A stretch of DNA of 64,000 nt, taken from assembly GCF_058153355.1 (NCBI RefSeq), contig NZ_CM177019.1. One strand, given 5' to 3'. The notes under the pieces are model-generated. The model was not told the origin of the DNA. It ran no database searches and saw nothing but the letters and a program-made list of their open reading frames with translations. A program made the translations under genes and the position numbers. Positions 2,071-17,869 of this stretch are shown here, piece by piece; within the stretch, counting starts at the first letter, position 1; every line of letters starts with the position of its first letter.

Positions 2071-2353
2071 CAGGTAATGTGAGTAGAGGTTGTGACGATT
2101 AAGCCTCTACTCTTACATCAATCTGTAAATGCCCCATTTTCTCCTCTCTTTGGTCCGACTCCGCAATTTCGTATATTTTTCAATAGTGTTAATGTTTTGT
2201 CCAAGTAAAAATTACCAGACATTCGGAGGTTTTTAACTAACATTTATAGTGGGTAAATTGGTGGGATACGCTTAACCTTAAAAAATCAATATAAACAATA
2301 GGTTATGATTGGTGTTTGTCTTATCGGATGAACTAATTTAAATGGAGTACTAA

Positions 2354-2617
2354 ATGGCTACTTTAATGGAAAAAGATTCTCTCCTGAATGGCGTAAGTCA
2401 AAATATTGCATTTTTATCAAATGTATCAGAAATGATTTACAAGTCCCAGAATGAAGAATTACAAAAGGAGATATATGAATTGGTGAGTTATAGAGACTAT
2501 TTATATTCAACAGGCCATGAACTCGTTGATTTCAAGGAAGGAGTATTGCGATTTCAGCAAGTTAGAAAAAAATACATGCAGGATCTAAAAGCGCTAGGTT
2601 ATCCCGCAACCAATTGA
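2354..2617 (+). CDS. hypothetical small protein in an AT-rich intergenic islet
   Basis: 87 aa ORF in a markedly AT-rich segment (about 2100-2790); no recognisable motif. Confidence 0.3.
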   Translation: MATLMEKDSLLNGVSQNIAFLSNVSEMIYKSQNEELQKEIYELVSYRDYLYSTGHELVDFKEGVLRFQQVRKKYMQDLKALGYPATN

Positions 2618-2797
2618 TAAATATGTCTTTATATTAATTTTAGGATGTGGATAACCTGCTGAAATTTATATTAAAAATGAAATAAAAATATTAAATTCAT
2701 ATCATGCTTGCGTTTTGTTCTCGATAACGCGTAATTTTGTTGAATGCTTTCTCCTGTGAATGCAAAACCAGGCAGTTTCCCGCCCGGCCTTCCTCAC

Positions 2798-4282
2798 TTA
2801 CGCATTCGACCAGCTCTGGATCGAATCTTCATTCCCCAGCTCACCATGCATCACTTCATACGATTTTTTCAGGATCACATCAGTGTGTTTGGTTAGGTCT
2901 TTGAAAATGCCTTTATTCATCGCGTCGTAGCGTTTGGCGTTGCTCTCAACAGGCATAAAGATATCTTTCACGCGAACCATTTTGTCGACAGCCGTTGCGT
3001 AATCCGGGTATAGCCCCAGACCTACCGCCGTATTAATCGCTGCCCCCAGGCTTGCACAACCGTTAATGGCGTTACGTCGTGCCGGAAGGTTGAACACGTC
3101 GGCAAAAATTTGCATAAACAGATCGCTGTTCGAACCGCCGCCAGTAATGATCACATGTTTCGCAAAGTGATTCATTTCATGACACATATTGTCGTAATTG
3201 TTCTTCAGCGTCAGCGTCAGCGCCACGCTTTCCAGTATCGAACGATATATCCATGCGTAATCCATGCTGGAATCAAAGCCGATCATAATCCCGCGTTTGT
3301 ACGGTTCCCACGGATTGGTCAGCCAGTCCAGCACCGTCATCAGACCATTACAGCCAGGCGGCACACAACAAGCTTTTTTGTTGAGCAAATCTTCCGGTGA
3401 AAGATCCTGCGCCCTGGCATCCTGAATTAACGATTCGCCTAGCATGTCGCGCAGCCAACTCACCGTCCACATGCCTTTGCGAATACCGTAACCTTCATAC
3501 AGCAAGGTTTGCGGAATAGAAGACATAATCGGCCAGTACGCTACCGGATCTTTCGGCAGTACTTTGCCGTTCATCATCAACGCGATGTAAGTGCCAAGAG
3601 AAATTACCGCAGTTTCATCATCCAGTAACCCGGCTCCCAGTGCTTCTACCGGTTTATCACTGGTGGTACAAACAACCGGCAGCCCAGCCGGGAAATGTGT
3701 CGCCAGCGCGGCTTGTGGTGTGATATGCCCAAGAACAGTGCCCGGCATTTGCACATCAAAAAGCATCTGTTGGGGAATATTAAACTTCTCCATTACCGCG
3801 GTATCTTCGCTCCATGCCCAGGTCTTATAATCCACCGGCCACTGACCAAAATAGTTGGCGATATTGTCTTTAAACTCGCCGGTTAAACGGTGTGTCAGAT
3901 AACCTGAAAAAGAGGTGACATATGCCACATCAGGATTGGTGTGCTCGTAGGGACGTGTTACGCGTGCATCCTGCCAGCTAATCAACGGCGCAGCTGGCGT
4001 GCCATCGGCTTTCAATAACGCACGGCAGCAACGGATAGATCCCAGACCAATGCCGACAATATCTTCTTTATTCCCGGCAAACTGGCTCATCAAATCGTGA
4101 CCAGCAAAACATAATGATGCCCATAAATCATCGTCAGGATGTTCTGCGGTATCGGCATCTGGAGTGTGCATCGGTTGTAATAAGCCTTTGCCTTCGCAAA
4201 CCACGTTACCTTCCAGATCGTACATCACCACTTTTGTGCTCTGACTTCCGCCATCAATCCCTATGATGTATTTTTTCGACAT
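2798..4282 (-). CDS. ygcE: FGGY-family carbohydrate kinase
   Basis: 494 aa ORF; N-terminal IGIDGGSQSTK kinase signature. Confidence 0.85.
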   Translation of the reverse strand: MSKKYIIGIDGGSQSTKVVMYDLEGNVVCEGKGLLQPMHTPDADTAEHPDDDLWASLCFAGHDLMSQFAGNKEDIVGIGLGSIRCCRALLKADGTPAAPLISWQDARVTRPYEHTNPDVAYVTSFSGYLTHRLTGEFKDNIANYFGQWPVDYKTWAWSEDTAVMEKFNIPQQMLFDVQMPGTVLGHITPQAALATHFPAGLPVVCTTSDKPVEALGAGLLDDETAVISLGTYIALMMNGKVLPKDPVAYWPIMSSIPQTLLYEGYGIRKGMWTVSWLRDMLGESLIQDARAQDLSPEDLLNKKACCVPPGCNGLMTVLDWLTNPWEPYKRGIMIGFDSSMDYAWIYRSILESVALTLTLKNNYDNMCHEMNHFAKHVIITGGGSNSDLFMQIFADVFNLPARRNAINGCASLGAAINTAVGLGLYPDYATAVDKMVRVKDIFMPVESNAKRYDAMNKGIFKDLTKHTDVILKKSYEVMHGELGNEDSIQSWSNA

Positions 4283-4308
4283 GATTTTTCTCCTGTAATT
4301 TTCCTGGC

Positions 4309-5586
4309 TTACTTGCTGCTAGCCATTGCGGGGGCGCTATCAGCAGTACGAATTTTTTGGAACAGCAAAAAGGTAAAGACGATCACCATGGCAAGCGCCG
4401 CCATGCCCATCAGCCACATATTGCGGTAGGCTTCTGCCGCGGGCAGGGTGTCTTGCCAGTGGCCGATAATTGGGTAAACGAAGACATCCGGCAGAAATCC
4501 AATCACCGAACAAATACCTACCGTGGTGCCCATAATGTAAGACGGTGTTCTCGCTTCGCCGGGGCAGGCCCAGTACAGCCCGCGGGAGGCGTAGCAGGTG
4601 AATCCCAGTAGTAAAATCAGGCCAATCCCCATCGCGACCGATTGCGGGTTAGAGTTCGTGATGAGCAGGGCAGTTAACGCCAGCAGGCCGAGTACGGAAA
4701 GGATTTGGATCACGCGGGTAGGGGATTTCACTTTGCTGTAGGTGGTGATAATGCCACCAAGTGGGCCGCACAGTGCGCGGAAGATTTTGTTGATCACAAT
4801 CCCCATGTAGCTCGCCGCCACCAGCGACATGCCGTACATTTCGGTCAGATAGTTGGTGGAGTAACTCAGAATGGCGTAGATGGTGAAGACGCCAAAAATC
4901 ACCATGCTGCAGTACCATGTGGTGCTGATACGCAAAACGGCAAGGATGTCGCTAAGCTGGAATGACTGTTTTTCTTCGGTGTTGGTATTGCGCAGGTTGT
5001 TGTTATCGCTAACAAAAAACCAGCACAGAATCCCCAACAAGATGTAAACCACACTATAGATGATAATGACCGTTTTCAGGCTGGCGCTGTCATCCGGTGC
5101 AAAGCGAGAAAAGACCCACATGGTAAACACCGCCAGCGACATTACACCGACGCCGCGCAGCCCTTCCATCCAGCCCATAATTTTCCCCTGCTCGCTATGA
5201 TCGCCAAGCAACGATGCGGCTTTAATCGACACCGACCACAGCATTAAAATCGTCGTTATCGCAAAGGCGACCTGAATACAGAGCATTACCCACAGCGGTG
5301 GATACGTTGCCATTAACAGACCCAGCAATCCGGTAATGATCATCGCGGAAGTAATCATTTTGCGGTGTGAAAATTTATCGGCAATAACGCTGCTGGGGGC
5401 ATAAAGAATAATAGCCGCAATACCAAAGGTACTCATTATTAAACCTATCTCGGTATTGCTGAATCCCATAAATTTCGCCATGGGAATTTGATAAATATAA
5501 CGTAAATAAGCCAGGTCGAAACTAACGCCGCCGCTAAAACTAATTATCGCGAGGGTTATCCAACGGCGATATGAGTTGTGTTGCAT
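4309..5586 (-). CDS. yqcE: MFS transporter
   Basis: 425 aa ORF, strongly hydrophobic with multiple predicted TM segments. Confidence 0.8.
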   Translation of the reverse strand: MQHNSYRRWITLAIISFSGGVSFDLAYLRYIYQIPMAKFMGFSNTEIGLIMSTFGIAAIILYAPSSVIADKFSHRKMITSAMIITGLLGLLMATYPPLWVMLCIQVAFAITTILMLWSVSIKAASLLGDHSEQGKIMGWMEGLRGVGVMSLAVFTMWVFSRFAPDDSASLKTVIIIYSVVYILLGILCWFFVSDNNNLRNTNTEEKQSFQLSDILAVLRISTTWYCSMVIFGVFTIYAILSYSTNYLTEMYGMSLVAASYMGIVINKIFRALCGPLGGIITTYSKVKSPTRVIQILSVLGLLALTALLITNSNPQSVAMGIGLILLLGFTCYASRGLYWACPGEARTPSYIMGTTVGICSVIGFLPDVFVYPIIGHWQDTLPAAEAYRNMWLMGMAALAMVIVFTFLLFQKIRTADSAPAMASSK

Positions 5587-5764
5587 ATCGTATTCCCATT
5601 TGTAATAGACAAAAAAAAGAGAAAAGTAAGCCGCCCTTTCAGGTGGATTACTTTTCTCAGGTCTCTAGTAATTGCAGTAAGAAATAACATGGAAAGCAGT
5701 GGTGTTGTGTGAGAGTAATCACGCTTCTGCTTTTTAAAATTATTTGACAATTCGAATATCACAC

Positions 5765-5780
5765 TGTGATTACGATCACA
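5765..5780. promoter_or_regulatory. candidate CRP binding site in the yqcE/ygcW divergent region
   Basis: TGTGA-ttacga-TCACA, perfect match to both half-sites of the CRP consensus. Confidence 0.45.
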
Positions 5781-5832
5781 TTAGCGCTTATGCCCTTATG
5801 CTAAAAATTATCTCCAGTTACCAGAGATAATG

Positions 5833-5880
5833 AGAAAGGTAACTTCCCTCTCGCGGGGGAAGTTACCTTTCTTTTTTTTT
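5833..5880 (+). terminator. intrinsic terminator-like hairpin with T-tract, 25 nt upstream of the ygcW start codon (possible leader attenuator)
   Basis: ggtaacttccc-tctcgcgg-gggaagttacc stem-loop followed by tttcttttttttttg on the + strand. Confidence 0.5.
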
Positions 5881-5904
5881 GCCTTACGGAAATTGGAGCT
5901 AACT

Positions 5905-6690
5905 ATGTCAATCGAATCTCTCAATGCGTTCTCAATGGATTTTTTCTCCCTGAAAGGTAAAACCGCAATTGTTACCGGCGGGAATAGCGGTTTAGGCCAG
6001 GCATTTGCCATGGCACTCGCAAAAGCAGGCGCAAATATCTTTATTCCAAGTTTCGTTAAAGATAATGGCGAAACAAAGGAAATGATTGAAAAACAGGGTG
6101 TTGAGGTGGACTTCATGCAGGTGGATATCACCGCAGAAGGCGCGCCGCAGAAGATAATTACCGCCTGTTGTGAACGTTTCGGCACCGTCGATATTCTGGT
6201 TAACAATGCCGGTATATGTAAGCTGAATAAGGTGCTGGATTTCGGTCGTGCCGACTGGGACCCGATGATTGACGTGAACCTGACCGCCGCATTCGAGTTA
6301 AGCTATGAAGCGGCAAAAATTATGATCCCGCAGAAAAGCGGTAAAATCATTAATATCTGTTCATTATTCTCTTACTTAGGTGGACAATGGTCACCTGCAT
6401 ATTCTGCCACTAAACATGCTCTTGCCGGATTCACCAAAGCTTATTGTGATGAACTAGGTCAATATAATATTCAGGTAAATGGTATTGCCCCTGGCTATTA
6501 TGCAACAGATATCACCCTGGCGACACGCAGTAATCCAGAAACCAATCAGCGCGTTCTTGATCATATTCCGGCAAACCGTTGGGGCGATACTCAGGATTTA
6601 ATGGGCGCAGCCGTATTCCTCGCAAGTCCGGCTTCAAATTATGTTAACGGGCATTTATTAGTGGTCGATGGCGGTTATTTAGTGCGCTAA
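5905..6690 (+). CDS. ygcW: short-chain dehydrogenase/reductase (KduD-like)
   Basis: 261 aa from ATG 5905; TGGNSGLG Rossmann motif; the ORF-track start at 5830 is an upstream in-frame extension. Confidence 0.85.
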   Translation: MSIESLNAFSMDFFSLKGKTAIVTGGNSGLGQAFAMALAKAGANIFIPSFVKDNGETKEMIEKQGVEVDFMQVDITAEGAPQKIITACCERFGTVDILVNNAGICKLNKVLDFGRADWDPMIDVNLTAAFELSYEAAKIMIPQKSGKIINICSLFSYLGGQWSPAYSATKHALAGFTKAYCDELGQYNIQVNGIAPGYYATDITLATRSNPETNQRVLDHIPANRWGDTQDLMGAAVFLASPASNYVNGHLLVVDGGYLVR

Positions 6691-6759
6691 TCCATAACGG
6701 TGGTTTCTGATTTCTTTTATTAATGACTATTCCATTTTTATTATCAGGAAGGAATTACT

Positions 6760-8214
6760 ATGTCTTTATCTCGCGCAGCGATTGTCGACCAGCTAAAGGA
6801 AATTGTTGGTGCAGATCGCGTAATTACCGATGAAACGGTATTGAAGAAAAACAGTATTGATCGTTTTCGTAAATTTCCGGATATTCATGGTATTTATACT
6901 TTGCCTATTCCGGCAGCGGTCGTAAAACTCGGTTCCACAGAGCAAGTGTCCCGTGTGCTGAATTTTATGAATGCACACAAAATTAACGGCGTACCACGTA
7001 CCGGTGCTTCCGCTACCGAAGGCGGGCTGGAAACTGTTGTGGAAAACTCGGTGGTGCTCGATGGCTCTGCAATGAATCAAATCATTAATATTGATATAGA
7101 GAATATGCAGGCCACGGCGCAATGTGGCGTTCCGTTGGAAGTGCTGGAAAACGCGTTGCGTGAAAAAGGCTATACCACGGGGCATTCTCCGCAGTCAAAA
7201 CCGTTGGCGCAGATGGGTGGGTTGGTAGCTACCCGCAGCATCGGGCAGTTCTCCACACTCTACGGCGCAATCGAGGATATGGTCGTTGGCCTGGAAGCAG
7301 TACTGGTTGATGGCACCGTGACACGCATTAAAAACGTGCCACGACGCGCGGCGGGCCCGGACATTCGTCACATCATCATCGGCAACGAAGGTGCATTGTG
7401 CTATATCACTGAAATAACAGTGAAAATATTTAAATTCACTCCCGAAAACAACCTCTTTTATGGCTATATCCTGGAAGACATGAAGACCGGCTTCAACATC
7501 CTGCGTGAAATCATGGTGGAAGGATATCGTCCGTCGATCGCTCGTTTGTATGACGCTGAAGATGGCACCCAACACTTCACCCATTTTGCCGACGGAAAAT
7601 GCGTGCTGATCTTTATGGCTGAAGGTAACCCTCGCATTGCGAAGGCGACGGGCGAAGGGATTGCAGAAATCGTGGCACGTTACCCGCAATGCCAGCGCGT
7701 GGACAGTAAGCTGATCGAAACCTGGTTTAACAACCTGAACTGGGGACCGGATAAAGTGGCTGCCGAACGTGTGCAGATCCTCAAAACCGGCAACATGGGC
7801 TTTACCACCGAAGTGTCCGGCTGCTGGAGTTGCATACACGAAATCTACGAAAGCGTTATTAACCGTATTCGTACCGAGTTCGCGCACGCCGACGACATCA
7901 CCATGCTGGGCGGTCACTCCTCTCATAGCTATCAGAACGGCACCAACATGTACTTCGTCTACGACTACAACGTTGTTGACTGTAAGCCGGAAGAGGAAAT
8001 CGACAAATACCACAATCCGCTCAACAAAATCATCTGCGAAGAAACCATTCGCCTCGGCGGTTCGATGGTACACCATCACGGTATCGGTAAACATCGTGTT
8101 CACTGGAGCAAACTGGAACACGGCAGCGCGTGGACATTGCTGGAAGGGCTGAAAAAACAGTTCGATCCTAACGGTATTATGAATACGGGTACTATCTATC
8201 CGATTGAAAAATAA
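6760..8214 (+). CDS. ygcU: FAD-linked oxidoreductase
   Basis: 484 aa ORF; assignment from recalled similarity to K-12 YgcU. Confidence 0.8.
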   Translation: MSLSRAAIVDQLKEIVGADRVITDETVLKKNSIDRFRKFPDIHGIYTLPIPAAVVKLGSTEQVSRVLNFMNAHKINGVPRTGASATEGGLETVVENSVVLDGSAMNQIINIDIENMQATAQCGVPLEVLENALREKGYTTGHSPQSKPLAQMGGLVATRSIGQFSTLYGAIEDMVVGLEAVLVDGTVTRIKNVPRRAAGPDIRHIIIGNEGALCYITEITVKIFKFTPENNLFYGYILEDMKTGFNILREIMVEGYRPSIARLYDAEDGTQHFTHFADGKCVLIFMAEGNPRIAKATGEGIAEIVARYPQCQRVDSKLIETWFNNLNWGPDKVAAERVQILKTGNMGFTTEVSGCWSCIHEIYESVINRIRTEFAHADDITMLGGHSSHSYQNGTNMYFVYDYNVVDCKPEEEIDKYHNPLNKIICEETIRLGGSMVHHHGIGKHRVHWSKLEHGSAWTLLEGLKKQFDPNGIMNTGTIYPIEK

Positions 8215-8307
8215 TGTGTCAGGCAGCGTTTCGCGATGACGGGGCGTTGTCTTTTCGGCTTCTCAACCGGGAAGCCGTTCTTATTACCGGACAATGAAGG
8301 GGTAAAG

Positions 8308-9645
8308 ATGAACACTTCACCGGTGCGAATGGATGATTTACCGCTTAACCGTTTTCACTGTCGAATTGCTGCGCTGACTTTCGGCGCACACCTGACCGAC
8401 GGTTATGTTCTCGGCGTCATTGGTTACGCCATAATTCAGCTTACTCCAGCCATGCAACTGACGCCGTTTATGGCGGGAATGATTGGTGGCTCGGCGCTAC
8501 TTGGCCTGTTTATCGGCAGCCTGGTTTTGGGGTGGATCTCCGACCATATCGGGCGGCAAAAAATCTTCACCTTCAGCTTTATGCTGATTACGCTCGCCTC
8601 GTTCCTGCAATTTTTTGCCACCACGCCAGAGCATCTTATTGGACTACGCATTTTGATCGGCATTGGTCTGGGAGGCGACTATTCAGTAGGTCACACCTTG
8701 CTGGCTGAATTTTCCCCGCGCCGCCATCGCGGTATTTTGCTAGGCGCTTTCAGCGTGGTGTGGACCGTAGGCTATGTGTTGGCAAGTCTTGCCGGACATC
8801 ACTTTATTAGCGAAAGCCCCGAAGCCTGGCGATGGTTACTTGCATCGGCGGCATTTCCTGCCCTGTTGATTACGTTGTTACGTTGGGGAACGCCAGAATC
8901 GCCACGCTGGCTACTGCGCCAGGGGCGTTTTGCAGAAGCTCACGCTATCGTGCATCGCTATTTTGGTCCCCATGTTTTACTGGGCGATGAAGTGGCAACG
9001 GCGACCCATAAACACATCAAAACCTTGTTCTCTTCGCGCTACTGGCGGCGCACGGCGTTTAACAGCGTCTTCTTTGTCTGCCTCGTAATCCCATGGTTTG
9101 TGATTTATACCTGGCTGCCAACTATCGCCCAGACTATTGGACTGGAAGATGCGCTGACTGCCAGCCTGATGCTTAATGCGTTGTTAATTGTGGGCGCGCT
9201 GCTGGGATTATTTCTGACGCACCTGCTGGCACATCGCAAATTTTTACTTGGCAGTTTTTTGTTGCTGGCGGCAACGCTGGTAGTGATGGCCTGTTTGCCT
9301 TCTGCCTGTTCATTAACGCTGCTGCTTTTTGTTCTCTTCAGTACCACCATTTCGGCAGTCAGTAATCTGGTGGGCATTTTGCCTGCGGAAAGTTTTCCTA
9401 CTGACATTCGCTCGCTGGGTGTCGGTTTTGCCACTGCCATGAGTCGGTTGGGGGCGGCGGTAAGTACTGGCCTGCTGCCGTGGGTGCTGGCGCAGTGGGG
9501 AATGCAAGTCACCTTATTGCTCCTGGCGGCAGTGTTGTTGGTTGGTTTTGTTGTGACCTGGCTATGGGCGCCAGAAACCAAAGCACTCCCGCTGGTGGCG
9601 GCGGGAAATGTAGGAGGTACTAATGAACATTCTGTTAGCATTTAA
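8308..9645 (+). CDS. ygcS: MFS sugar/metabolite transporter
   Basis: Hydrophobic ORF; likely start ATG 8308 (MNTSPVRMDDL), ORF-track start 8236 is an upstream extension. Confidence 0.8.
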   Translation: MNTSPVRMDDLPLNRFHCRIAALTFGAHLTDGYVLGVIGYAIIQLTPAMQLTPFMAGMIGGSALLGLFIGSLVLGWISDHIGRQKIFTFSFMLITLASFLQFFATTPEHLIGLRILIGIGLGGDYSVGHTLLAEFSPRRHRGILLGAFSVVWTVGYVLASLAGHHFISESPEAWRWLLASAAFPALLITLLRWGTPESPRWLLRQGRFAEAHAIVHRYFGPHVLLGDEVATATHKHIKTLFSSRYWRRTAFNSVFFVCLVIPWFVIYTWLPTIAQTIGLEDALTASLMLNALLIVGALLGLFLTHLLAHRKFLLGSFLLLAATLVVMACLPSACSLTLLLFVLFSTTISAVSNLVGILPAESFPTDIRSLGVGFATAMSRLGAAVSTGLLPWVLAQWGMQVTLLLLAAVLLVGFVVTWLWAPETKALPLVAAGNVGGTNEHSVSI

Positions 9646-10402
9646 AGCCGAACCAGATGCCGGAATGCTGGCAGAAAAAGAGTGGCAGGTGGCGGCTCAG
9701 GGTAATCGCGGACCGGATGTTTCGCTGCTGCGAAGTTTACTCGGTGCTGATGAACAGGCCGCTGCCGCGCTTCTGTTAGCGCAGAGAAAAAACGGTACGC
9801 CGATGTCTTTAACCGCGTTGAGCATGGGGGATGAACGGGCGTTGCACTGGCTGCGCTATCTTATGGCGTTGGGGTTTGAGAAGGCAGTATTGCTGGAGAC
9901 GGCGGCAGATCTGCGCTTTGCACCGGAATTTGTCGCCCGGCATATTGCCGAATGGCAGTGCCAGAATCCGCTGGATCTGATAATTACCGGCTGCCAGAGC
10001 AGCGAAGGGCAGAACGGGCAAACGCCATTTTTGCTGGCGGAAATGCTGACCTGGCCCTGTTTTACCCAGGTGGAGCGTTTTACTCTCGACGCACCGTTTA
10101 TCTCGCTCGAACAGCGTACTGAACATGGATTACGCTGTTGTCGGGTTCGCTTGCCTGCGGTGATTGCCGTGCGCCAGTGTGGCGAGGTGGCCTTGCCAGT
10201 ACCGGGAATGCGCCAGCGAATGGCTGCGGGGAAAGCTGAAATTATCCGCAAAACTGTTACTGCTGAATCGTCTGCGATGCAGTGCCGGCAACTGGAAAGG
10301 CCAGAGCAACGACGCGGTGCAACGCTTCTTGATGGACAAACGGTAGCAGAAAAAGCGCAAAAGCTATGGCAGGACTATTTACGCCAAAGGATGCAGCCAT
10401 GA
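9623..10402 (+). CDS. ygcR: electron-transfer flavoprotein beta-subunit-like protein (FixA-like)
   Basis: 259 aa ORF; stop overlaps next start (ATGA). Confidence 0.8.
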   Translation: MNILLAFKAEPDAGMLAEKEWQVAAQGNRGPDVSLLRSLLGADEQAAAALLLAQRKNGTPMSLTALSMGDERALHWLRYLMALGFEKAVLLETAADLRFAPEFVARHIAEWQCQNPLDLIITGCQSSEGQNGQTPFLLAEMLTWPCFTQVERFTLDAPFISLEQRTEHGLRCCRVRLPAVIAVRQCGEVALPVPGMRQRMAAGKAEIIRKTVTAESSAMQCRQLERPEQRRGATLLDGQTVAEKAQKLWQDYLRQRMQP

Positions 10403-11259
10403 ATATCGCCATTGTGACAATAAATCAGGAACATGCCGCAATAGCGGGCTGGCTGGCGGAGCAGGATTTCAGCGGCAGCACATTAACGCACTGGCAAATC
10501 GAGCCGCAGCCGATGGTCGCGGAACAGGTGCTGGATGCGCTGGTAGAACAGTGGCAGCGAACGCCTGCGGACGTTGTTCTCTTTCCGCCGGGAACGTTTG
10601 GCGATGAACTGGCTACCCGCCTGTCCTGGCGTTTACATGGTGCCAGTATATGCCAGGTGACTTCATTAAATATTCCAACCGGAAGCGTACGCAAATCCCA
10701 CTGGGGAAATGCGCTAACGGCGACGCTGCAAACAGAAAAACGCCCGCTATGCTTCTCCCTGGCGCGTCAGGCGGGAGCAGATAAAAACGCCTCGTTGCCC
10801 CCGGGTATGCAGCAACTGAACATTGTCCCAGGTGCGCTTCCCGGCTGGCTGGTTAGCATAGTGAACCTGAAAAATGTTACCCGTGACCCATTAGCTGAGG
10901 CCAGACGGGTGCTGGTGGTGGGGCAGGGCGGAGAGGCAGATAACCAGGAAATCGCTATGCTGGCAGAAAAGCTGGGAGCCGAAGTGGGCTACAGTCGGGC
11001 GCGAGTAATGAACGGTGGCGTTGATGCCGAAAAAGTGATTGGTATTTCCGGACATCTGCTGGCACCTGAGGTGTGTATTGTTGTTGGCGCTTCCGGCGCA
11101 GCAGCGTTAATGGCGGGCGTCCGCAATAGCAAGTTTGTGGTGGCGATTAATCATGACGCCAGCGCGGCGGTATTTTCACAGGCAGATGTTGGCGTGGTTG
11201 ATGACTGGAAAGCGGTGCTGGAGGCACTGGTGACAACCATTCACGCAGATTGCCAATAA
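10399..11259 (+). CDS. ygcQ: electron-transfer flavoprotein alpha-subunit-like protein (FixB-like)
   Basis: Start ATG 10399 (MNIAIVT) overlapping the ygcR stop. Confidence 0.8.
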   Translation: MNIAIVTINQEHAAIAGWLAEQDFSGSTLTHWQIEPQPMVAEQVLDALVEQWQRTPADVVLFPPGTFGDELATRLSWRLHGASICQVTSLNIPTGSVRKSHWGNALTATLQTEKRPLCFSLARQAGADKNASLPPGMQQLNIVPGALPGWLVSIVNLKNVTRDPLAEARRVLVVGQGGEADNQEIAMLAEKLGAEVGYSRARVMNGGVDAEKVIGISGHLLAPEVCIVVGASGAAALMAGVRNSKFVVAINHDASAAVFSQADVGVVDDWKAVLEALVTTIHADCQ

Positions 11260-11261
11260 CG

Positions 11262-11390
11262 TGCTGCCGGATGATCCTGCCTACGGTTCTGGGCTGGGGA
11301 CTTGTAAGCCTGATAAGACGCGTCAAGCGTCGTATCAGGCGCTGAATGTCGGATGTGGCGTGCAGCCTACAAATCACACAAATTCAATTC
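11262..11390. repeat. REP/BIME-like palindromic units
   Basis: gcctgataagacgcgtcaagcgtcgtatcaggcgc and gccggatg/ggcctac-type palindromes. Confidence 0.55.
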
Positions 11391-11405
11391 GTTACGATTA
11401 TCTCG

Positions 11406-11981
11406 TCAAAGCAATTTTTTCGCTAACGTCCAGACCCCGGTATTCGTGGTAGAAAGCGCCACTACACCGGCGTTAATCGCATTACGCGCATCTTCTTCAT
11501 CGCACACCAGCCCGCCAGCAATCAGCGGCTGGTGGATTTTCTCCGTTACCCAGCCCAGTACTTTAGGCATACAGCCTGGCAGAATTTCAATACAATCCGG
11601 GTTCGATTGCGCAACCTGTTTATCAATGTTGTGAAATGAAATCGAATCAACAATAAACAAGCGATGAATACAGAAAAAGCCTTCCGCTCTCGCCGCTTTT
11701 AGCATTGACGCTTTGGTACTGATAATGCCGTCCGCCTCGGTCACCAGTTTCAGAAACTGAATTACTACTTCTTTATTTGACGCGCCTTCCAGCAAATCGA
11801 CATGAATAAAAGCATATTTTCCGGCGTTCTTAATCTTTTTGACGATATGACTGATGGTGCAAATATTGCCGTATAACACGGAAATAAACTGGCATTCAGA
11901 ATCGATTGCCAACTGCAGGCTGGCATTATCTTTAACGGCAGCAATCACCGGATTCTGGCGGAGCAGGTGTAAGAGGGGCAT
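11406..11981 (-). CDS. ygcP: GlpP-family glycerol-3-phosphate-responsive antiterminator-like protein
   Basis: 191 aa ORF; assignment from recalled similarity to K-12 YgcP. Confidence 0.8.
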   Translation of the reverse strand: MPLLHLLRQNPVIAAVKDNASLQLAIDSECQFISVLYGNICTISHIVKKIKNAGKYAFIHVDLLEGASNKEVVIQFLKLVTEADGIISTKASMLKAARAEGFFCIHRLFIVDSISFHNIDKQVAQSNPDCIEILPGCMPKVLGWVTEKIHQPLIAGGLVCDEEDARNAINAGVVALSTTNTGVWTLAKKLL

Positions 11982-11997
11982 AAATTATCCTTATTAT

Positions 11998-12258
11998 TTA
12001 TCCAAAGCGGTAGGTGATGCCGAATCCGGAAGGCGGATAGCGCCACTGTTGTAGCGTTTTTTCATCGCACAGCAAACGGCAGGTGCCGCACTCCAGACAA
12101 TTACGATAATCAACGTGCAAATCACCTTCCGGTGTGAGCGAAAAAAGACCAGCCGGACAAGCGTTAATCAACCGTTCTGCCGTCTGGCGCTCAACGGAGT
12201 CAGCCGGAACAATATGTGGCGCATCAGCAGCGCGCCAGAGATTACGGGCTACAGACAT
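11998..12258 (-). CDS. ygcO: ferredoxin-like protein (FixX-like)
   Basis: Cys motif CLECGTCRLLCDEK; likely start MSVARNL. Confidence 0.75.
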   Translation of the reverse strand: MSVARNLWRAADAPHIVPADSVERQTAERLINACPAGLFSLTPEGDLHVDYRNCLECGTCRLLCDEKTLQQWRYPPSGFGITYRFG

Positions 12259-13520
12259 CGAATACTCCTGACAACATCGCCCGCCAGATGCCACAGGCCA
12301 TGACGACGTAAATGACGCCAGAGCAACTGGCGCAGCGGCGGAACAGGTTTATCACCTTGATCCCATAAATCACGGGAAATATCCTGCATTAACACAGGCC
12401 ACTTACGGTACCAGCCCGGGCGTTGCAAAAGCGCCGGAACATGCTGATAGCGCTGTAGAACATCCCACAGCAGGCTGCGCTCTACGTTGTAATGATAAAG
12501 CGGAAACAGATTTTGCGGCTCGCGGTGCTGGCAGGCGCTTATCAGCGTTTGTGCCGCCGCCTGCGCGCCAGTTAGCGCCATATCCATGCCGCGCACGGAA
12601 ATTCCGGTATTGACGCAACTGCGCAACGTATCGCCCACCAGCAGCCAGCCGTTACCGGCGTATTGCACCGGCATACTGTGCAGGCCACCTTCCGGCACCA
12701 GATGCGCGCCATACTCCAGCGATTCCGCGCTTTTGATAAGCTGGCGCACTGCCGGATGCGTTTTAAAGCGGGCCAGCAGCTCGCTTGCCGGAACACGACT
12801 TTGCGTAAGTGAAGAGAGCGGGCAAACAATCCCTAACGAGAGCGTTTGTTGATTAGTATAAAGAAATGCGCCGCCGGGTAAGTCATCACAGATTCCGCCG
12901 CTGAACAGCAACGCTGCGCCTTCGTTATTCTCCAGATGAAAACGTTCTTCAATAGCGGATGTTTCCAGTGAAAGAACTTCTTTGATCCCCAACGCCATCG
13001 CTTCGCCAGCAGGACGAGTCACTAACCCGTGACGCTCAGCCAGGACGCTGTTGGCACCTTCTGCCAGCACCACATAACGGGCGCGGAGAATATCGTCACC
13101 ACAAATAACGCCGCAAACTCTGCCGTTTTCTTCATACAGCGCATCTACCGTCGCACCAGGGATGCATTCGACACCTTCTTTTTCGGCTTCGGCAACCAGC
13201 CACGGATCGAACCGTGCACGTAATACGCTCCAGGATTCACCGCCGGGCTGTAAGCTGGAAAACGTCGTTGCGCCATCCGGCGTTAGCAGAGAAAGACTTT
13301 CGTGAGTGATGCGTCGTTCAAGAGGCGCGGTCAGGTGAAACTGAGGGAGGAGTTCCGCGAGCGCATGGGTGTATAAACGCCCGCCGGAAAGGTTTTTACT
13401 GCCGGGAATTTCAGCGCGTTCCAGTAACAGAACGGATAAACCTGCCCGCGCGCAGCGTAAAGCACAAGCGGTGCCTGCTATACCCGCACCAATAATAATA
13501 ATGTCGCAGTCGTCTTCCAT
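12249..13520 (-). CDS. ygcN: FAD-dependent oxidoreductase (FixC-like)
   Basis: DIIIIGAGIAGTACA dinucleotide-binding motif; likely start MEDDCD. Confidence 0.8.
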   Translation of the reverse strand: MEDDCDIIIIGAGIAGTACALRCARAGLSVLLLERAEIPGSKNLSGGRLYTHALAELLPQFHLTAPLERRITHESLSLLTPDGATTFSSLQPGGESWSVLRARFDPWLVAEAEKEGVECIPGATVDALYEENGRVCGVICGDDILRARYVVLAEGANSVLAERHGLVTRPAGEAMALGIKEVLSLETSAIEERFHLENNEGAALLFSGGICDDLPGGAFLYTNQQTLSLGIVCPLSSLTQSRVPASELLARFKTHPAVRQLIKSAESLEYGAHLVPEGGLHSMPVQYAGNGWLLVGDTLRSCVNTGISVRGMDMALTGAQAAAQTLISACQHREPQNLFPLYHYNVERSLLWDVLQRYQHVPALLQRPGWYRKWPVLMQDISRDLWDQGDKPVPPLRQLLWRHLRRHGLWHLAGDVVRSIRCL

Positions 13521-13597
13521 GTCATGCCCCAGATATCCAGAGCGCAACACCCTAACATAGCGTTACTTAAGGGAAATTGACCGCCGACACACTCTTA

Positions 13598-13963
13598 TCA
13601 TTCGCCGCGATAGATGCAACCTGCGGTGCAGGTTTCTTTCACCATAACCGCACTTAACAGCGGAACAACCGGTTTAACCTGATCCCAAATCCATTTTGCT
13701 AAAACCTCGCTGGTCGGGTTTTCCAGGCCAGGAATATCATTGAGATAATAGTGATCGAGGCGATCATAGGTTGGTTTAAATGCCGCTTTCAGTTCAGCGA
13801 AATCGATAATCCAGCCCGTATGCGGATCGACTTCCCCGGTAATTTCCAGTCGCACCATAAAGGAATGCCCATGCAGGCGACCACATTTATGTCCTTCCGG
13901 GACGTGTGGTAAGCGGTGAGCGGCTTCGAAGGTGAAATCTTTAAATAACGTGGTGGACATCAT
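13598..13963 (-). CDS. queD: 6-carboxy-5,6,7,8-tetrahydropterin synthase QueD
   Basis: 121 aa from [18 protein letters not shown]; CGRLHGHSF zinc motif; ORF-track start 14047 is an upstream extension. Confidence 0.85.
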
Positions 13964-14278
13964 AATTTCTCTACATGACGATAAAACCGCCGTAGAGTAC
14001 CGGAAAGGCTGTTTTTTCGCATTATCTAAAACGACTTTGTTGCGCAAAATCGCTGATTTATCTTAATGATTGGCTAAATTCATTTGTTTTTCATTGGGTT
14101 GGTTAATCTGTTTTGTTGTTAAAGACTATTGCTAAAACAGGTTAGTCGATTTGGTTATTAGTTATCGCTATCCCGTCTTTAATCCACACCGTTCACCCCG
14201 TTAACCTTACCTTCTCTTCTGTTTTATGGGCGCTGACAGGGCGCAGAAACAGCTTTGCTTACTGGAACATAACGACGC

Positions 14279-17796: not shown

Positions 17797-17812
17797 CCAT
17801 CAGTCCAGTCTT

Positions 17813-17850: not shown

Positions 17851-17869
17851 GGCAAACAGTGAGGAATCT

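What the first reader, a model, noticed from the sequence alone, without database searches (positions are those of the whole stretch)
5905..13520. ygcN-ygcW cluster: an orphan ETF-linked catabolic module of unknown substrate
The cluster combines a FixABCX-like electron-transfer set (ygcR, ygcQ, ygcN, ygcO), a GlpP-like antiterminator (ygcP), an MFS transporter (ygcS), an FAD oxidoreductase (ygcU), an SDR dehydrogenase (ygcW), and nearby an FGGY kinase (ygcE) and a second MFS transporter (yqcE). This gene content suggests uptake and oxidation of a polyol or sugar acid, but I know of no defined substrate.
Basis: inference. Interest (0 to 1): 0.35.

Follow-up and report, generated by a model that had tools for sequence, protein, structure and literature searches.

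The report
Orphan ygc catabolic regulon with antiterminator switch
The ygc/yqc genes are really there and still have no known substrate, but relatives in other bacteria suggest a pathway that feeds the glycerol-like end of a betaine- or choline-type compound into glycolysis using an ether-lipid-synthase-like flavoenzyme, switched on by a GlpP-type antiterminator protein acting on a conserved RNA hairpin not found in Rfam.

Summary
Every gene named lies at the stated coordinates, in a divergent Escherichia genome. No paper I could search assigns a substrate; a March 2026 paper still calls YgcU a plain "FAD-binding oxidoreductase".

New points:
1. YgcU is not a generic GlcD-type oxidase. It keeps the three catalytic signatures of alkyl-DHAP synthase (AGPS): Arg, Tyr and the HHH loop.
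2. ygcW, ygcE and ygcU form a core conserved at 43-82% identity across at least five phyla. ETF genes and ygcP usually accompany it.
3. Outside Enterobacterales the core sits in operons with quaternary-amine transporters (BCCT, OpuC-type ABC). Some loci add MttB-family, betaine-aldehyde-dehydrogenase-like or aspartase-like enzymes.
4. Both divergent operons (ygcWUSRQ, yqcE-ygcE) start with a CRP site and then a strong leader terminator. The terminator's 5' arm (GAGAAAAGUAAC) is conserved from E. coli to Firmicutes and Streptomyces. The motif was found in all 55 loci that encode YgcP.

Best reading: a CRP-dependent catabolic regulon controlled by YgcP antitermination. The inferred steps are oxidation (YgcW), phosphorylation (YgcE), AGPS-type processing of a 1-substituted DHAP (YgcU), and electron transfer through YgcRQ and YgcNO to quinone. 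The substrate remains unproven.

The parts
2798..4282 (-). ygcE, FGGY-family kinase. Second gene of the yqcE-ygcE operon.
   Evidence: Pfam FGGY_N and FGGY_C. Best NCBIfam hits are XylB (136 bits) and the AI-2 kinase LsrK (133 bits), all far below their cut-offs. The only PDB relative is LsrK 5ya0. Found within 9 kb of ygcU in 71 of 83 loci.
4309..5586 (-). yqcE, MFS_1 transporter of the anion:cation-symporter type (D-galactonate-transporter-like).
   Evidence: Paired with the kinase in Gammaproteobacteria. Co-exists with BCCT or OpuC transporters in Photobacterium L004, Vibrio L208, Eubacterium L081 and Enterococcus L207.
5610..5663 (-). yqcE leader: intrinsic-terminator hairpin carrying the conserved motif (GAGAAAAGUAAU...), followed by U8.
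   Evidence: Model R1 scores 54.8 bits, E 9e-10. Folding energy -20.5 kcal/mol, z -4.7. The same element sits upstream of yqcE in the Enterobacterales loci and in Photobacterium.
5708..5723 (.). CRP-like site TGTGAGAGTAATCACG, one mismatch to the core. Probably serves the yqcE promoter.
   Evidence: A CRP-like site with at most one mismatch is present in 43 of 45 Enterobacterales yqcE-ygcW intergenic regions. yqcE-ygcE is listed as Crp-activated in PMC8085971.
5765..5780 (.). Perfect CRP core TGTGAttacgaTCACA. In class II geometry it would place the ygcW transcription start near 5814.
   Evidence: It is the only match in the 64-kb window, where 0.03 are expected by chance. PhyloScan ranks the yqcE/ygcW site second among predicted CRP sites (PMC1794230). 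The start position is inferred from geometry, not measured.
5827..5880 (+). ygcW leader: 19-bp intrinsic-terminator hairpin carrying the conserved motif (GAGAAAGGUAACUUCC...), followed by U9. It ends about 25 nt before the ygcW ATG.
   Evidence: Terminator scan. Model R1 scores 61.9 bits, E 2e-11. Folding energy -31 kcal/mol, z -7.4. No Rfam family matches.
5905..6690 (+). ygcW, an SDR of the KduD / gluconate-5-dehydrogenase type.
   Evidence: Scores 350 bits against the KduD model PRK06935, just under its cut-off of 369. The closest PDB entries are 2-deoxy-D-gluconate 3-dehydrogenase and gluconate 5-dehydrogenase. 64-82% identical to orthologues in other phyla.
6760..8214 (+). ygcU, an AGPS-type FAD enzyme of the VAO/PCMH fold.
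   Evidence: The best PDB relative is alkyl-DHAP synthase 4bby (profile E 1e-55). AGPS Arg419, Tyr578 and His615-617 align with YgcU R262, Y398 and H438-440. All are invariant in 10 orthologues from several phyla. The GlcD-type paralogue c16 lacks them.
8236..9645 (+). ygcS, a sugar-porter-type MFS transporter.
   Evidence: It hits aromatic-acid, sugar-porter and organic-cation (OCT/SV2) subfamilies, all below their cut-offs. Close orthologues occur only in Enterobacterales. It occupies the same operon slot (AKR-Fae-transporter) that a BCCT holds in SAR324 L050.
9623..10402 (+). ygcR, ETF beta subunit. Overlaps ygcS by 23 nt.
   Evidence: Pfam ETF. Weak FixA hit. ETF genes lie within 9 kb of ygcU in 61 of 83 loci, usually directly downstream as U-R-Q.
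10399..11259 (+). ygcQ, ETF alpha subunit. Overlaps ygcR by 4 nt.
   Evidence: Pfam ETF_alpha. Hits FixB and YdiR-type models, below their cut-offs.
11406..11981 (-). ygcP, a GlpP-family (PF04309) putative RNA-binding antiterminator.
   Evidence: E 2e-62 over the full length of the profile. Matches Listeria GlpP 3KTS over residues 11-184 at E 9e-29, roughly 35-40% identity read from the alignment. 39-61% identical to cluster-linked orthologues in other phyla. The RNA motif was found in all 55 loci that encode it.
11998..12258 (-). ygcO, a FixX-like ferredoxin.
   Evidence: NCBIfam FixX 77.9 bits, cut-off 166. Weak Fer4 Pfam hits.
12249..13520 (-). ygcN, a FixC-like ETF:quinone oxidoreductase.
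   Evidence: NCBIfam PRK10015 376 bits and FixC 358 bits, both below cut-off. Pfam ETFQO_UQ-bd domain. Among the loci examined it occurs only in Enterobacterales-type clusters (37 loci).

Best explanation
The region is one catabolic regulon made of three transcription units: ygcWUSRQ (+), yqcE-ygcE (-) and ygcNOP (-).

Shown by tool results:
- The gene identities.
- The AGPS-type active-site residues of YgcU.
- The two CRP sites.
- The two leader terminators that carry a conserved RNA motif.
- That motif was found in every locus that encodes a YgcP-type protein.
- Outside Enterobacterales, the orthologous W-E-U core sits next to, or in operons with, quaternary-amine transporters and enzymes.

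Inferred mechanism:
1. Transcription starts at CRP-dependent promoters. It stops about 17 nt later at the leader terminators.
2. YgcP, loaded with a glycerol-3-phosphate-like pathway intermediate, binds the conserved 5' arm (GAGAAAAGUAAC) of the nascent hairpin. The terminator cannot form and RNA polymerase reads through.
3. A small polar compound with a glycerol-like end (X-CH2-CHOH-CH2OH) is imported by YgcS and/or YqcE. By comparative context, X is a betaine- or choline-type quaternary-ammonium group, possibly joined through an ether bond.
4. YgcW oxidises the secondary alcohol to a ketone.
5. YgcE phosphorylates the terminal CH2OH. The product is a 1-substituted dihydroxyacetone phosphate.
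6. YgcU uses AGPS-type flavin chemistry at C1 to remove the substituent. A triose-phosphate-level product (DHAP) enters glycolysis.
7. Electrons leave YgcU through the ETF YgcRQ and pass through the FixCX-like YgcNO to the quinone pool.

The order of steps 4 and 5 is not known. The substrate is not identified.
For: Gene content.

YgcU as an AGPS-type enzyme:
- The best PDB match is AGPS, and Arg419, Tyr578 and the HHH loop are conserved.
- They are invariant across several phyla and absent from the neighbouring GlcD-type paralogue.

YgcW and YgcE: YgcW is KduD / gluconate-5-dehydrogenase-like. These enzymes oxidise a secondary alcohol next to a terminal CH2OH (established knowledge of the family). 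YgcE is LsrK/XylB-like, a kinase type that phosphorylates a terminal CH2OH.

Conserved core: within 9 kb of ygcU in 83 loci, W occurs in 77, E in 71, ETF in 61 and P in 56. W and U are 64-82% identical between Escherichia and Firmicutes, Desulfobacterota and SAR324.

Link to quaternary amines:
- BCCT genes in 14 loci plus Vibrio L208.
- OpuC-type ABC transporters inside the operons of Virgibacillus L073, Enterococcus raffinosus L207 and Fodinisporobacter L209.
- MttB-family genes inside the operon in L071/L162. In L074 an MttB-family gene is preceded by the motif; in L075 the ABC-transporter operon is.
- A BetI-type regulator in L072.
- A BADH-like ALDH, an ADH and an aspartase-like lyase upstream of BCCT-W-E-U in L002.
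- Sources.
- In the conserved AKR-Fae-transporter operon, YgcS and a BCCT occupy the same slot.

Regulation:
- Terminator scan and folding z-scores of -7.4 and -4.7.
- The consensus structure has compensatory changes in 10 of 17 pairs. None of 500 shuffles reaches the observed values.
- Model R1 hits the 64-kb window only at the two leaders.
- The motif always lies on the sense strand upstream of cluster genes (W, yqcE, U, BCCT, MttB, ABC).
- Motif against ygcP: 55 loci have both, none has ygcP alone, 20 have neither.
- The motif is also found in Streptomyces clavuligerus between P and W and in Vibrio hannami.
- The canonical mechanism is documented: GlpP with glycerol-3-phosphate disrupts a 5'-UTR terminator (PMC9604022).
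- CRP.
Against: - There is no experimental evidence for any step. The substrate is unknown.
- The Escherichia cluster itself has no BCCT or OpuC transporter. The best subfamily hit of YgcS is the aromatic-acid/H+ symporters. The quaternary-amine inference for E. coli therefore rests on orthology and on the operon-slot argument.
- AGPS catalysis is redox-neutral, so the tight U-ETF linkage is not explained by simple AGPS chemistry. Several clusters (Pantoea/Erwinia type, Halobacillus type, Streptomyces) have no ETF genes at all.
- The ETF of Escherichia is only about 30% identical to the ETFs of other phyla.
- The loci examined are phylogenetically clustered; more than half are Enterobacterales. 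The motif-versus-ygcP counts are therefore not independent events.
- RNA binding by YgcP and its effector are untested.
- The leader start sites are inferred from CRP geometry only.
Confidence: 0.5

Rival explanations
1. One reading: uptake and oxidation of an uncharged polyol or a sugar acid, for example a tetritol or pentitol. YgcE makes a polyol phosphate. YgcU with ETF oxidises it, as EryA and EryB do in Brucella erythritol catabolism. YgcW adds a second dehydrogenation.
For: YgcS is a sugar-porter-type MFS and YqcE resembles the galactonate transporter. The kinase is XylB/LsrK-like and the SDR is KduD/Gno-like. CRP control is typical of secondary carbon sources. The Escherichia cluster has no quaternary-amine transporter.
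Against: Orthologues with 65-82% identical W and U are embedded in BCCT, OpuC, MttB, BetI and BADH-like contexts in many unrelated lineages, some under the same RNA motif. The AGPS-type active site of YgcU implies a DHAP-like ketone phosphate, not a simple polyol-phosphate dehydrogenase. No sugar isomerase, aldolase or epimerase recurs in the clusters.
Confidence: 0.2
2. A glycerol-phosphate module. YgcU with ETF would be an alternative, quinone-linked dehydrogenase for glycerol-3-phosphate or sn-glycerol-1-phosphate. YgcP would sense glycerol-3-phosphate as GlpP does in Bacillus.
For: YgcP belongs to PF04309, whose characterised member responds to glycerol-3-phosphate. AGPS-type residues bind a triose-phosphate moiety. 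ETF plus ETF-QO is a plausible route to quinone.
Against: YgcE is not a GlpK orthologue (98 bits against a cut-off of 590). E. coli already has GlpD and GlpABC (my own knowledge). The RNA motif differs from the canonical glp leaders, where R1 scores only 8-9 bits on S. aureus glpF and glpD. An SDR and quaternary-amine transporters would have no role. YgcP is only distantly related to a canonical GlpP (E 9e-29 against Listeria 3KTS).
Confidence: 0.1
3. Catabolism of glycerophosphocholine-type phosphodiesters. Kinase and SDR would convert the free glycerol end to a DHAP whose C1 carries phosphocholine. YgcU would expel phosphocholine, as AGPS expels the fatty acid. Choline would then go to glycine betaine.
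For: Glycerophosphocholine is an abundant zwitterion (my own knowledge). A phosphate ester is a leaving group comparable to the acyl group of the AGPS substrate (inference). Some loci carry BADH-like ALDH, ADH, a SurE phosphatase and an MttB homologue whose closest solved relative is glycine betaine methyltransferase.
Against: Simple glycerophosphodiesterases such as GlpQ and UgpQ already do this in one step (my own knowledge), so a three-enzyme route has no obvious rationale. BCCT and OpuC transporters are not known to carry glycerophosphocholine (my own knowledge). The aspartase-like lyase is unexplained.
Confidence: 0.07
4. YgcU is a true alkyl-DHAP synthase and the cluster makes ether lipids.
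For: The AGPS catalytic residues are conserved. Some databases name orthologues 'alkyldihydroxyacetonephosphate synthase'.
Against: The N-terminal ~190 residues of AGPS and the segment 429-522 do not align; I take these to be the lipid-binding parts. No acyltransferase or fatty-acyl reductase is in any cluster. The cluster has transporters, a kinase, CRP control and substrate-type antitermination, all hallmarks of catabolism. E. coli is not known to make ether lipids (my own knowledge).
Confidence: 0.02
5. A decaying, non-functional remnant in Escherichia.
For: No phenotype has been reported. Many database entries hold truncated YgcU or YgcS, or fused gene calls.
Against: All ten ORFs are intact in the window. 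The cluster is present in at least 5080 of 5426 E. coli genomes. YgcU is 99% identical in protein while the DNA is about 91-92% identical, which indicates purifying selection. The regulatory RNA elements and CRP sites are conserved.
Confidence: 0.03

Closest known systems
Bacillus subtilis GlpP with the glpD, glpFK and glpTQ leaders (glycerol-3-phosphate-dependent antitermination)
   Same: Both use a PF04309 protein. In both, each regulated operon has a promoter followed closely by an intrinsic terminator in the 5' UTR. The S. aureus glpF and glpD leader terminators also have a conserved purine-rich 5' arm, so the layout is the same.
   Different: YgcP is only distantly related to a canonical GlpP (E 9e-29 against Listeria 3KTS). 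The RNA motif differs in sequence: R1 scores 8-9 bits on canonical glp leaders against 55-70 bits on ygc-type leaders. The regulated genes are not glpF, glpK or glpD. The effector is unknown. The system occurs in Gram-negative bacteria and works together with CRP.
Alkyl-dihydroxyacetone-phosphate synthase (AGPS/ADPS; PDB 4BBY, 2UUU)
   Same: FAD_binding_4 plus FAD-oxidase_C fold. The catalytic Arg, Tyr and HHH loop are conserved.
   Different: YgcU has 484 residues against 658 in AGPS. The N-terminal region and the segment 429-522 do not align. It sits in a catabolic, transporter-containing, ETF-linked operon rather than among lipid-synthesis genes. The likely substrate is soluble and the reaction may involve net electron transfer.
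VAO-family dehydrogenases that reduce ETF: LctBCD lactate dehydrogenase/ETF complex (PDB 7QH2) and D-2-hydroxyglutarate dehydrogenase
   Same: A VAO-fold flavoenzyme is encoded directly beside etfB and etfA (U-R-Q). LctD is a detectable relative (E 4.5e-21).
   Different: YgcU lacks the GlcD-type motifs (EHG, GHxxxNHxHxN). The co-occurring paralogue c16 has them. The Escherichia version adds a FixCX-type link to quinone instead of NAD/ferredoxin confurcation.
E. coli caiTABCDE-fixABCX (carnitine) and ydiQRST
   Same: An ETF (FixAB-like) plus a FixCX-like oxidoreductase is attached to a specialised catabolic operon. In the carnitine system the substrate is a quaternary amine imported by the BCCT transporter CaiT (my own knowledge).
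   Different: YgcRQNO score below the equivalog cut-offs for FixABCX. There are no CoA-transferase, CoA-ligase or acyl-CoA-dehydrogenase genes. The partner enzyme is a VAO/AGPS-type flavoprotein.
Lignin beta-aryl-ether cleavage (LigD, LigE/F, LigG) and Brucella erythritol catabolism (EryA, EryB), as functional analogies only
   Same: The logic is shared. An SDR oxidises the alcohol next to a stable bond to activate it (LigD). A kinase followed by a flavin dehydrogenase acts on a polyol phosphate (EryA, EryB). This comparison rests on my own knowledge of those pathways.
   Different: There is no homology to the cleaving enzymes LigE/F, and EryB is GlpD-like rather than VAO-like. This is a resemblance in strategy, not family membership.

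Membership tests
GlpP-type protein-dependent antitermination | Regulator with the PF04309 (G3P_antiterm) domain | tested here: met
   YgcP residues 12-184 match profile positions 1-173 of 173, E 2e-62. Also matches the PDB GlpP entries 3KTS and 1VKF.
GlpP-type protein-dependent antitermination | Intrinsic terminator in the 5' leader of each regulated operon | tested here: met
   Hairpin plus U-run at 5827-5880(+) and 5610-5663(-). These are predictions; termination was not measured.
GlpP-type protein-dependent antitermination | The RNA element and the protein occur together across genomes | tested here: met
   55 loci have both, none has ygcP without the motif, 20 have neither. Nine have the motif without a detected ygcP; at least four of these are truncated contigs and three are gene-calling failures. 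The loci are not phylogenetically independent.
GlpP-type protein-dependent antitermination | Same RNA target sequence as the canonical glp leaders | tested here: not met
   R1 gives only 8-9 bits on the S. aureus glpF and glpD leaders. Their conserved arm has a different sequence.
GlpP-type protein-dependent antitermination | Glycerol-3-phosphate as effector; RNA binding and read-through activity | not testable with these tools
   Needs binding and in vitro transcription assays.
Alkyl-DHAP synthase (AGPS) | VAO/PCMH FAD-binding domain plus cap domain | tested here: met
   PF01565 and PF02913. AGPS is the top PDB match, profile E 1e-55.
Alkyl-DHAP synthase (AGPS) | Catalytic Arg419, Tyr578 and His615-617 (guinea-pig numbering) | tested here: met
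   They align with R262, Y398 and H438-440. All are invariant in alignment A1 and absent from the GlcD-type paralogue.
Alkyl-DHAP synthase (AGPS) | N-terminal domain and hydrophobic tunnel for the fatty chains | tested here: not met
   YgcU has 484 residues against 658. AGPS residues 1 to about 190 and 429-522 have no aligned counterpart. That these parts form the lipid tunnel is my own knowledge of the AGPS structure.
Alkyl-DHAP synthase (AGPS) | Ether-lipid biosynthetic gene context (DHAP acyltransferase, fatty-acyl reductase) | tested here: not met
   None was found among the recurrent neighbours in 83 loci.
FixABCX / ETF with ETF:quinone oxidoreductase | ETF beta and alpha, a FixC-like flavoprotein with the ETF-QO ubiquinone-binding domain, and a FixX-like ferredoxin | tested here: met
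   Pfam ETF, ETF_alpha and ETFQO_UQ-bd. NCBIfam FixA, FixB, FixC and FixX hits.
FixABCX / ETF with ETF:quinone oxidoreductase | Equivalog-level identity to FixABCX | tested here: not met
   All scores are below the curated cut-offs: FixC 358 against 610, FixX 78 against 166, FixB 64 against 549, FixA 30 against 219.
ETF-dependent GlcD/LctD-type 2-hydroxy-acid dehydrogenase | GlcD-type active-site motifs | tested here: not met
   YgcU has HHHG where c16 has EHG. It also has a 13-residue Tyr-containing segment that c16 lacks. GlcD model: 144 bits against a cut-off of 568.
FGGY kinases of known specificity (GlpK, XylB, LsrK, GntK and others) | Score at or above the equivalog cut-off | tested here: not met
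   Best hits are XylB 136 against 380, LsrK 133 against 528 and GlpK 98 against 590.
KduD / gluconate-5-dehydrogenase SDRs | Score at or above the equivalog cut-off | tested here: not met
   PRK06935 gives 350 bits against a cut-off of 369, a near miss. TIGR01832 gives 276 against 339. YgcW is close to the family but not a called member.
Quaternary-amine catabolic clusters (BCCT- or OpuC-linked) | A dedicated betaine/choline/carnitine-type transporter in the cluster | tested here: inconclusive
   Not present in the window. Present in orthologous clusters of many lineages, some behind the same RNA motif.
Any Rfam RNA family | Match to a curated covariance model | tested here: not met
   Neither leader matches any family at E <= 1 in window 2500-14400.

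The most novel reading that the evidence does not exclude
The ygc regulon is the Escherichia representative of a cross-phylum pathway that detaches the glycerol backbone from non-hydrolysable, ether-linked betaine head groups. The leading candidate substrate is glyceryl-N,N,N-trimethylhomoserine, the deacylated form of DGTS betaine lipids. An SDR and a kinase would turn the free glycerol end into an alkyl-DHAP. An AGPS-type flavoenzyme would then run ether-lipid-synthase chemistry in the cleaving direction and release DHAP plus the betaine alcohol. In some organisms the alcohol would go on through ADH, a BADH-like ALDH and an aspartase-like lyase to fumarate plus trimethylamine, or be demethylated by MttB-family enzymes. 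The whole system would be controlled by a previously undescribed GlpP-family protein and RNA-motif switch.
Probability: 0.15. Interest if true: 0.85.

Novelty: new variant of a known kind. Interest (0 to 1): 0.55.

Why it matters
This is one of the larger orphan operon sets left in E. coli: ten genes, present in at least 94% of complete genomes.

If the reading is right, four things follow:
- A concrete and narrow list of candidate substrates, namely quaternary-ammonium compounds with a glycerol-like end, replaces "unknown polyol".
- It would be a catabolic use of alkyl-DHAP-synthase chemistry, so far known (to my knowledge) only from ether-lipid synthesis.
- It would add a GlpP-type protein-RNA antitermination switch to E. 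coli and define its RNA motif. GlpP is so far characterised in Firmicutes. The motif spans at least Pseudomonadota, Bacillota and Actinomycetota and could be added to Rfam or used as a portable genetic part.
- It would connect to microbial turnover of betaine- and choline-type compounds, and possibly to trimethylamine formation, in gut and marine habitats.

Tried and rejected
- **Literature.** Seven full-text searches found no paper that assigns a substrate or pathway. One search was wasted because 'ygce' matches a journal DOI string. The YgcS report on NMN production shows only an over-expression effect and says nothing about the native substrate.
- **Rfam.** An E-value scan of 2500-14400 gave only two weak, irrelevant hits.
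- **Metagenome scan.** The 16-mer GAGAAAAGTAAYTTCC returned mostly chance matches. Only 4 of the 80 loci tested carry the real element, and all belong to the lineage already seen in L071.
- **YgcS homologues.** Close relatives are confined to Enterobacterales, so they give no independent context.
- **ygcN upstream region.** I looked for an R1 motif or a terminator upstream of ygcN and found none. ygcNOP is therefore probably not under antitermination.
- **Rejected ideas.** True ether-lipid synthesis, a simple GlcD-type 2-hydroxy-acid dehydrogenase, and gene decay. Reasons are given under the rival explanations.
- **Not done.** I did not predict the YgcU structure. The tools return no coordinates, so the active-site pocket could not be inspected, and the sequence match to AGPS was already decisive.
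- **Not possible.** I used the S. aureus glp locus from the plasmid collection instead.

Full report
**Observation.** The ORF list and Pfam scan identify these genes:
- ygcE 2798-4282(-), FGGY kinase
- yqcE 4309-5586(-), MFS_1 transporter
- ygcW 5905-6690(+), SDR
- ygcU 6760-8214(+), FAD_binding_4 plus FAD-oxidase_C
- ygcS 8236-9645(+), sugar-porter MFS
- ygcR and ygcQ 9623-11259(+), ETF beta and alpha
- ygcP 11406-11981(-), PF04309, E 2e-62
- ygcO 11998-12258(-), FixX-like ferredoxin
- ygcN 12249-13520(-), FixC-like with an ETF-QO ubiquinone-binding domain

RefSeq uses the same names for the syntenic region of strain EC42405. The region matches 5425 of 5426 complete E. coli genomes, and 5080 of them cover at least 80% of the query. 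The window itself comes from a divergent Escherichia lineage. It is about 91-92% identical in DNA to E. coli E69 and to E. albertii, and 97.6% identical to EC42405. YgcU is nevertheless 99% identical in protein to the E. coli form, which indicates purifying selection. Gene overlaps (ygcS/R 23 nt, ygcR/Q 4 nt, ygcO/N 10 nt) fit three transcription units: ygcWUSRQ, yqcE-ygcE and ygcNOP.

**Status in the literature.** Seven full-text searches found no substrate or pathway assignment. A March 2026 paper still describes ygcU only as "an additional FAD-binding oxidoreductase" (PMC13012123). YgcS appears only as a protein whose over-expression raises NMN production (PMC8601175). The CRP link is published: PhyloScan ranks the yqcE/ygcW site second (PMC1794230), and yqcE-ygcE is listed as Crp-activated (PMC8085971).

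**The enzymes.** YgcU is the informative one.
- Its closest solved relatives are alkyl-DHAP synthases. A single-sequence search gives 4bby at E 9e-40 and the family profile gives E 1e-55. Glycolate oxidase and the ETF-dependent lactate dehydrogenase LctD follow.
- In the alignment to guinea-pig AGPS, Arg419, Tyr578 and the His615-617 loop align with YgcU R262, Y398 and H438-440. The identity of these residues as catalytic is confirmed by the deposited R419H and Y578F mutant chains.
- All of them are invariant in ten orthologues from several phyla.
- A second, GlcD-type FAD oxidase (c16) accompanies YgcU in anaerobes. It has EHG instead of HHHG and lacks the Tyr-containing segment. The AGPS signature is therefore specific to YgcU.
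- AGPS residues 1 to about 190 and 429-522 have no aligned counterpart in YgcU. I take these to be the lipid-binding parts, from my own knowledge of the structure.
- YgcW falls just under the KduD model cut-off (350 against 369 bits) and resembles gluconate-5- and 2-deoxygluconate-3-dehydrogenases. These enzymes oxidise a secondary alcohol next to a terminal CH2OH.
- YgcE is closest to xylulokinase and the AI-2 kinase LsrK, far below their cut-offs. Both phosphorylate a terminal CH2OH.
- Together the three enzymes fit this conversion: X-CH2-CHOH-CH2OH to X-CH2-CO-CH2-O-P, a 1-substituted DHAP. That is the class of compound on which AGPS acts. This is inference.

**Comparative genomics.** YgcU is unusually conserved: 65-75% identity in Firmicutes, Desulfobacterota, SAR324 and Vibrionaceae. 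A genome scan gave 80 loci out of 553 relatives found. I called ORFs in these loci and clustered them by BLAST. Within 9 kb of ygcU in 83 loci:

| Gene | Loci |
|---|---|
| ygcW | 77 |
| ygcE | 71 |
| ETF beta / alpha | 61 each |
| ygcP | 56 |
| yqcE | 47 |
| ygcS | 43 |
| ygcN | 37 |
| BCCT transporter | 14 |
| second GlcD-type oxidase (c16) | 14 |

. W, E and U form the core, usually with P and ETF.

The transporter varies by lineage:
- YgcS occurs only in Enterobacterales.
- BCCT occurs in Photobacterium, Vibrio, Sporomusa, Geosporobacter, Dethiosulfatibacter, Halobacillus, Thalassobacillus, SAR324 and rumen Eubacterium.
- An OpuC/OpuA-type ABC system with an OpuAC binding protein sits inside the operon in Virgibacillus, Enterococcus raffinosus and Fodinisporobacter. 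It lies next to the cluster in several Bacillota MAGs.

Other recurrent neighbours:
- MttB-family methyltransferases, inside the operon in L071 and L162.
- A BetI-type TetR regulator.
- A BADH-like aldehyde dehydrogenase, an alcohol dehydrogenase and an aspartase-like lyase directly upstream of BCCT-W-E-U in Alkalihalobacillus oceani. The same lyase type, with MttB and an AKR, lies next to the cluster in Desulfopila.
- An AKR plus a formaldehyde-activating-enzyme homologue. These precede ygcS in Pantoea, Erwinia and Serratia, and precede a BCCT in SAR324. YgcS and BCCT therefore occupy the same operon slot.

This is the main reason to extend the quaternary-amine inference to the Escherichia cluster, which has no BCCT or OpuC of its own.

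**The regulatory element.** The 318-bp divergent region 5587-5904 holds two CRP sites and two terminators.
- The perfect CRP core TGTGAttacgaTCACA lies at 5765-5780. It is the only one in 64 kb, where 0.03 are expected.
- A second CRP-like site lies at 5708-5723. A site with at most one mismatch is present in 43 of 45 Enterobacterales intergenic regions.
- Class II geometry would put the two transcription starts near 5814 (+) and 5674 (-). Each would be about 17 nt upstream of a strong hairpin followed by a U-run. These starts are inferred, not measured.
- The ygcW hairpin is 5832-5873: 19 bp, -31 kcal/mol, z -7.4, followed by U9.
- The yqcE hairpin is 5658-5619: -20.5 kcal/mol, z -4.7, followed by U8.
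- The stem sequence is conserved far beyond what a terminator needs. GAGAAA(A/G)GUAAC...GCUUUUCUC plus Us occurs upstream of W, yqcE, U, BCCT, MttB and ABC-transporter genes. It is found in Enterobacterales, Vibrionaceae, Bacillaceae, Clostridia and Negativicutes, and in Streptomyces clavuligerus, where the element is 46% G+C.
- In a 43-sequence alignment the 5' arm has seven invariant positions and the 3' arm has two. An unpaired A in UAAC is at least 90% conserved.
- Ten of 17 pairs show compensatory changes. None of 500 column shuffles reaches the observed values, and sliding the partners drops pairing from 95% to about 60%.
- Covariance model R1 hits the 64-kb window only at the two leaders: 61.9 bits (E 2e-11) and 54.8 bits (E 9e-10), plus reverse-strand echoes.
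- No Rfam family matches.
- Across loci, 55 have both the motif and ygcP. None has ygcP without the motif. Twenty have neither. Nine have the motif without a detected ygcP; at least four of these are truncated contigs and three are gene-calling failures. These loci are phylogenetically clustered, so this is strong co-occurrence, not a formal probability.
- The canonical S. aureus glpP-glpF-glpK-glpD locus scores only 8-9 bits with R1. Its two leader terminators share their own conserved 5' arm.
- The published model for B. subtilis is that GlpP with glycerol-3-phosphate disrupts a terminator immediately downstream of the promoter. Each target promoter has a GlpP site and an inherent 5'-UTR terminator (PMC9604022).
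- The ygc system therefore has the same architecture with a different RNA specificity. The effector is presumably different too.

**Mechanism: what is shown and what is inferred.**
- Shown: gene identities, AGPS-type residues, CRP sites, leader terminators, motif conservation and covariation, co-occurrence of motif and ygcP, and the transporter and enzyme contexts.
- Inferred, regulation: YgcP, loaded with a phosphorylated pathway intermediate that resembles glycerol-3-phosphate, binds the nascent 5' arm and prevents the terminator from forming.
- Inferred, pathway: the substrate is imported by YgcS and/or YqcE, oxidised by YgcW and phosphorylated by YgcE. YgcU then acts at C1 of the resulting DHAP derivative and yields a triose phosphate. 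Electrons flow through YgcRQ and YgcNO to quinone.
- ygcNOP has no motif and lies only 77 nt after queD with no terminator between them. The regulator is probably made independently of the inducer.

**The unexplained point.** AGPS chemistry is redox-neutral, yet U-R-Q is a conserved triad, and some lineages have no ETF genes at all. One possibility is an oxidative variant, as in nitroalkane oxidase. It would give a 2-oxoaldehyde phosphate that an AKR reduces to DHAP. The recurrent AKR does resemble methylglyoxal reductase and L-glyceraldehyde-3-phosphate reductase. This is speculation.

**Candidate substrates.** The most coherent specific candidate is the deacylated head group of betaine lipids (glyceryl-trimethylhomoserine).
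- It is an ether, so hydrolases cannot cleave it.
- It is a zwitterionic quaternary amine, which suits BCCT and OpuC transporters.
- Cleavage would release a betaine alcohol. The ADH, BADH-like ALDH and aspartase-like lyase module could take this alcohol to fumarate plus trimethylamine.
- No tool result tests this. I give it about 15%.

**Rivals.** Each is set out with evidence in its own section:
- a plain polyol or sugar acid (0.2)
- a glycerol-phosphate module (0.1)
- glycerophosphocholine-type diesters (0.07)
- true ether-lipid synthesis (0.02)
- gene decay (0.03)

**Verdict.** The finding is real and the genes are already annotated, so the observation itself is not new. Three things appear to be undescribed in the literature and databases I could search: the AGPS-type nature of YgcU in a cross-phylum catabolic core, its link to quaternary-amine metabolism, and the conserved leader RNA motif paired with a GlpP-family protein in E. 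coli. I class it as a new variant of known kinds (GlpP-type antitermination; ETF-linked catabolic module), with interest 0.55.

Noticed in passing
window 2070-2798: In E. coli EC42405 a CRISPR array lies between queE and ygcE (L001 1345-2167). In the window this position has no repeats. It holds AT-rich DNA with an 87-aa ORF at 2354-2617.
   Followed up: partly
window 2500-20000: The window comes from a divergent Escherichia lineage. It is 90-95% identical to almost all E. coli genomes, about 92% to E. albertii, and 97.6-97.7% to a few strains labelled E. coli, such as bovine EC42405.
   Followed up: partly
L005 and L028: A contig labelled 'Planctomycetota MAG' has a YgcU 99% identical to the window's. 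A contig labelled 'Chryseobacterium sp.' carries the complete Enterobacteriaceae-type cluster. Both are probably contamination or mis-binning.
   Followed up: no
window 11308-11340 (-): A weak Rfam hit to naRNA4 (28 bits, below the gathering score) lies in the gap between the convergent ygcQ and ygcP genes. I suspect a REP-like element.
   Followed up: no
window 13521-13597: Only 77 nt separate queD from ygcN on the same strand. There is no terminator-like hairpin and no R1 motif. ygcNOP may be read through from queD.
   Followed up: partly
L206 8860-9010 and 11440-11610 (S. aureus glp locus): The glpF and glpD leaders share AAGTTAATA...GAGA(n)GAGATTT, which forms the 5' arm of their terminators. 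This may be the canonical GlpP target, and it has the same layout as the ygc-type motif.
   Followed up: partly
L003, L004, L063, L068 and other anaerobe loci: These clusters carry a second, GlcD-type FAD oxidase (c16). It often has its own second ETF pair, and in Photobacterium the alpha subunit has a faint ferredoxin-domain hit. Its substrate is unknown.
   Followed up: partly
L071, L074 and L162: An operon preceded by the motif in L074 (the matching operon in L071 runs off the contig end) encodes an MttB-family protein, a PanB-like hydroxymethyltransferase, an OpuC-type ABC transporter and a proline-racemase-family protein. No corrinoid protein was seen among the genes called in these loci.
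   Followed up: partly
protein clusters P0009, P0029, P0241, P0255: Many E. coli records hold truncated YgcU (415 aa with 845 members; 412 aa with 328 members). Others hold fused YgcU-YgcS or YgcS-ETF gene calls. These may be frameshifts or annotation artefacts in part of the population.
   Followed up: no
L001 18868-21916 (relative of the window): Strain EC42405 has a Hok/Gef toxin gene and a frameshifted cas3 just downstream of cysH. I did not check the corresponding part of the window.
   Followed up: no
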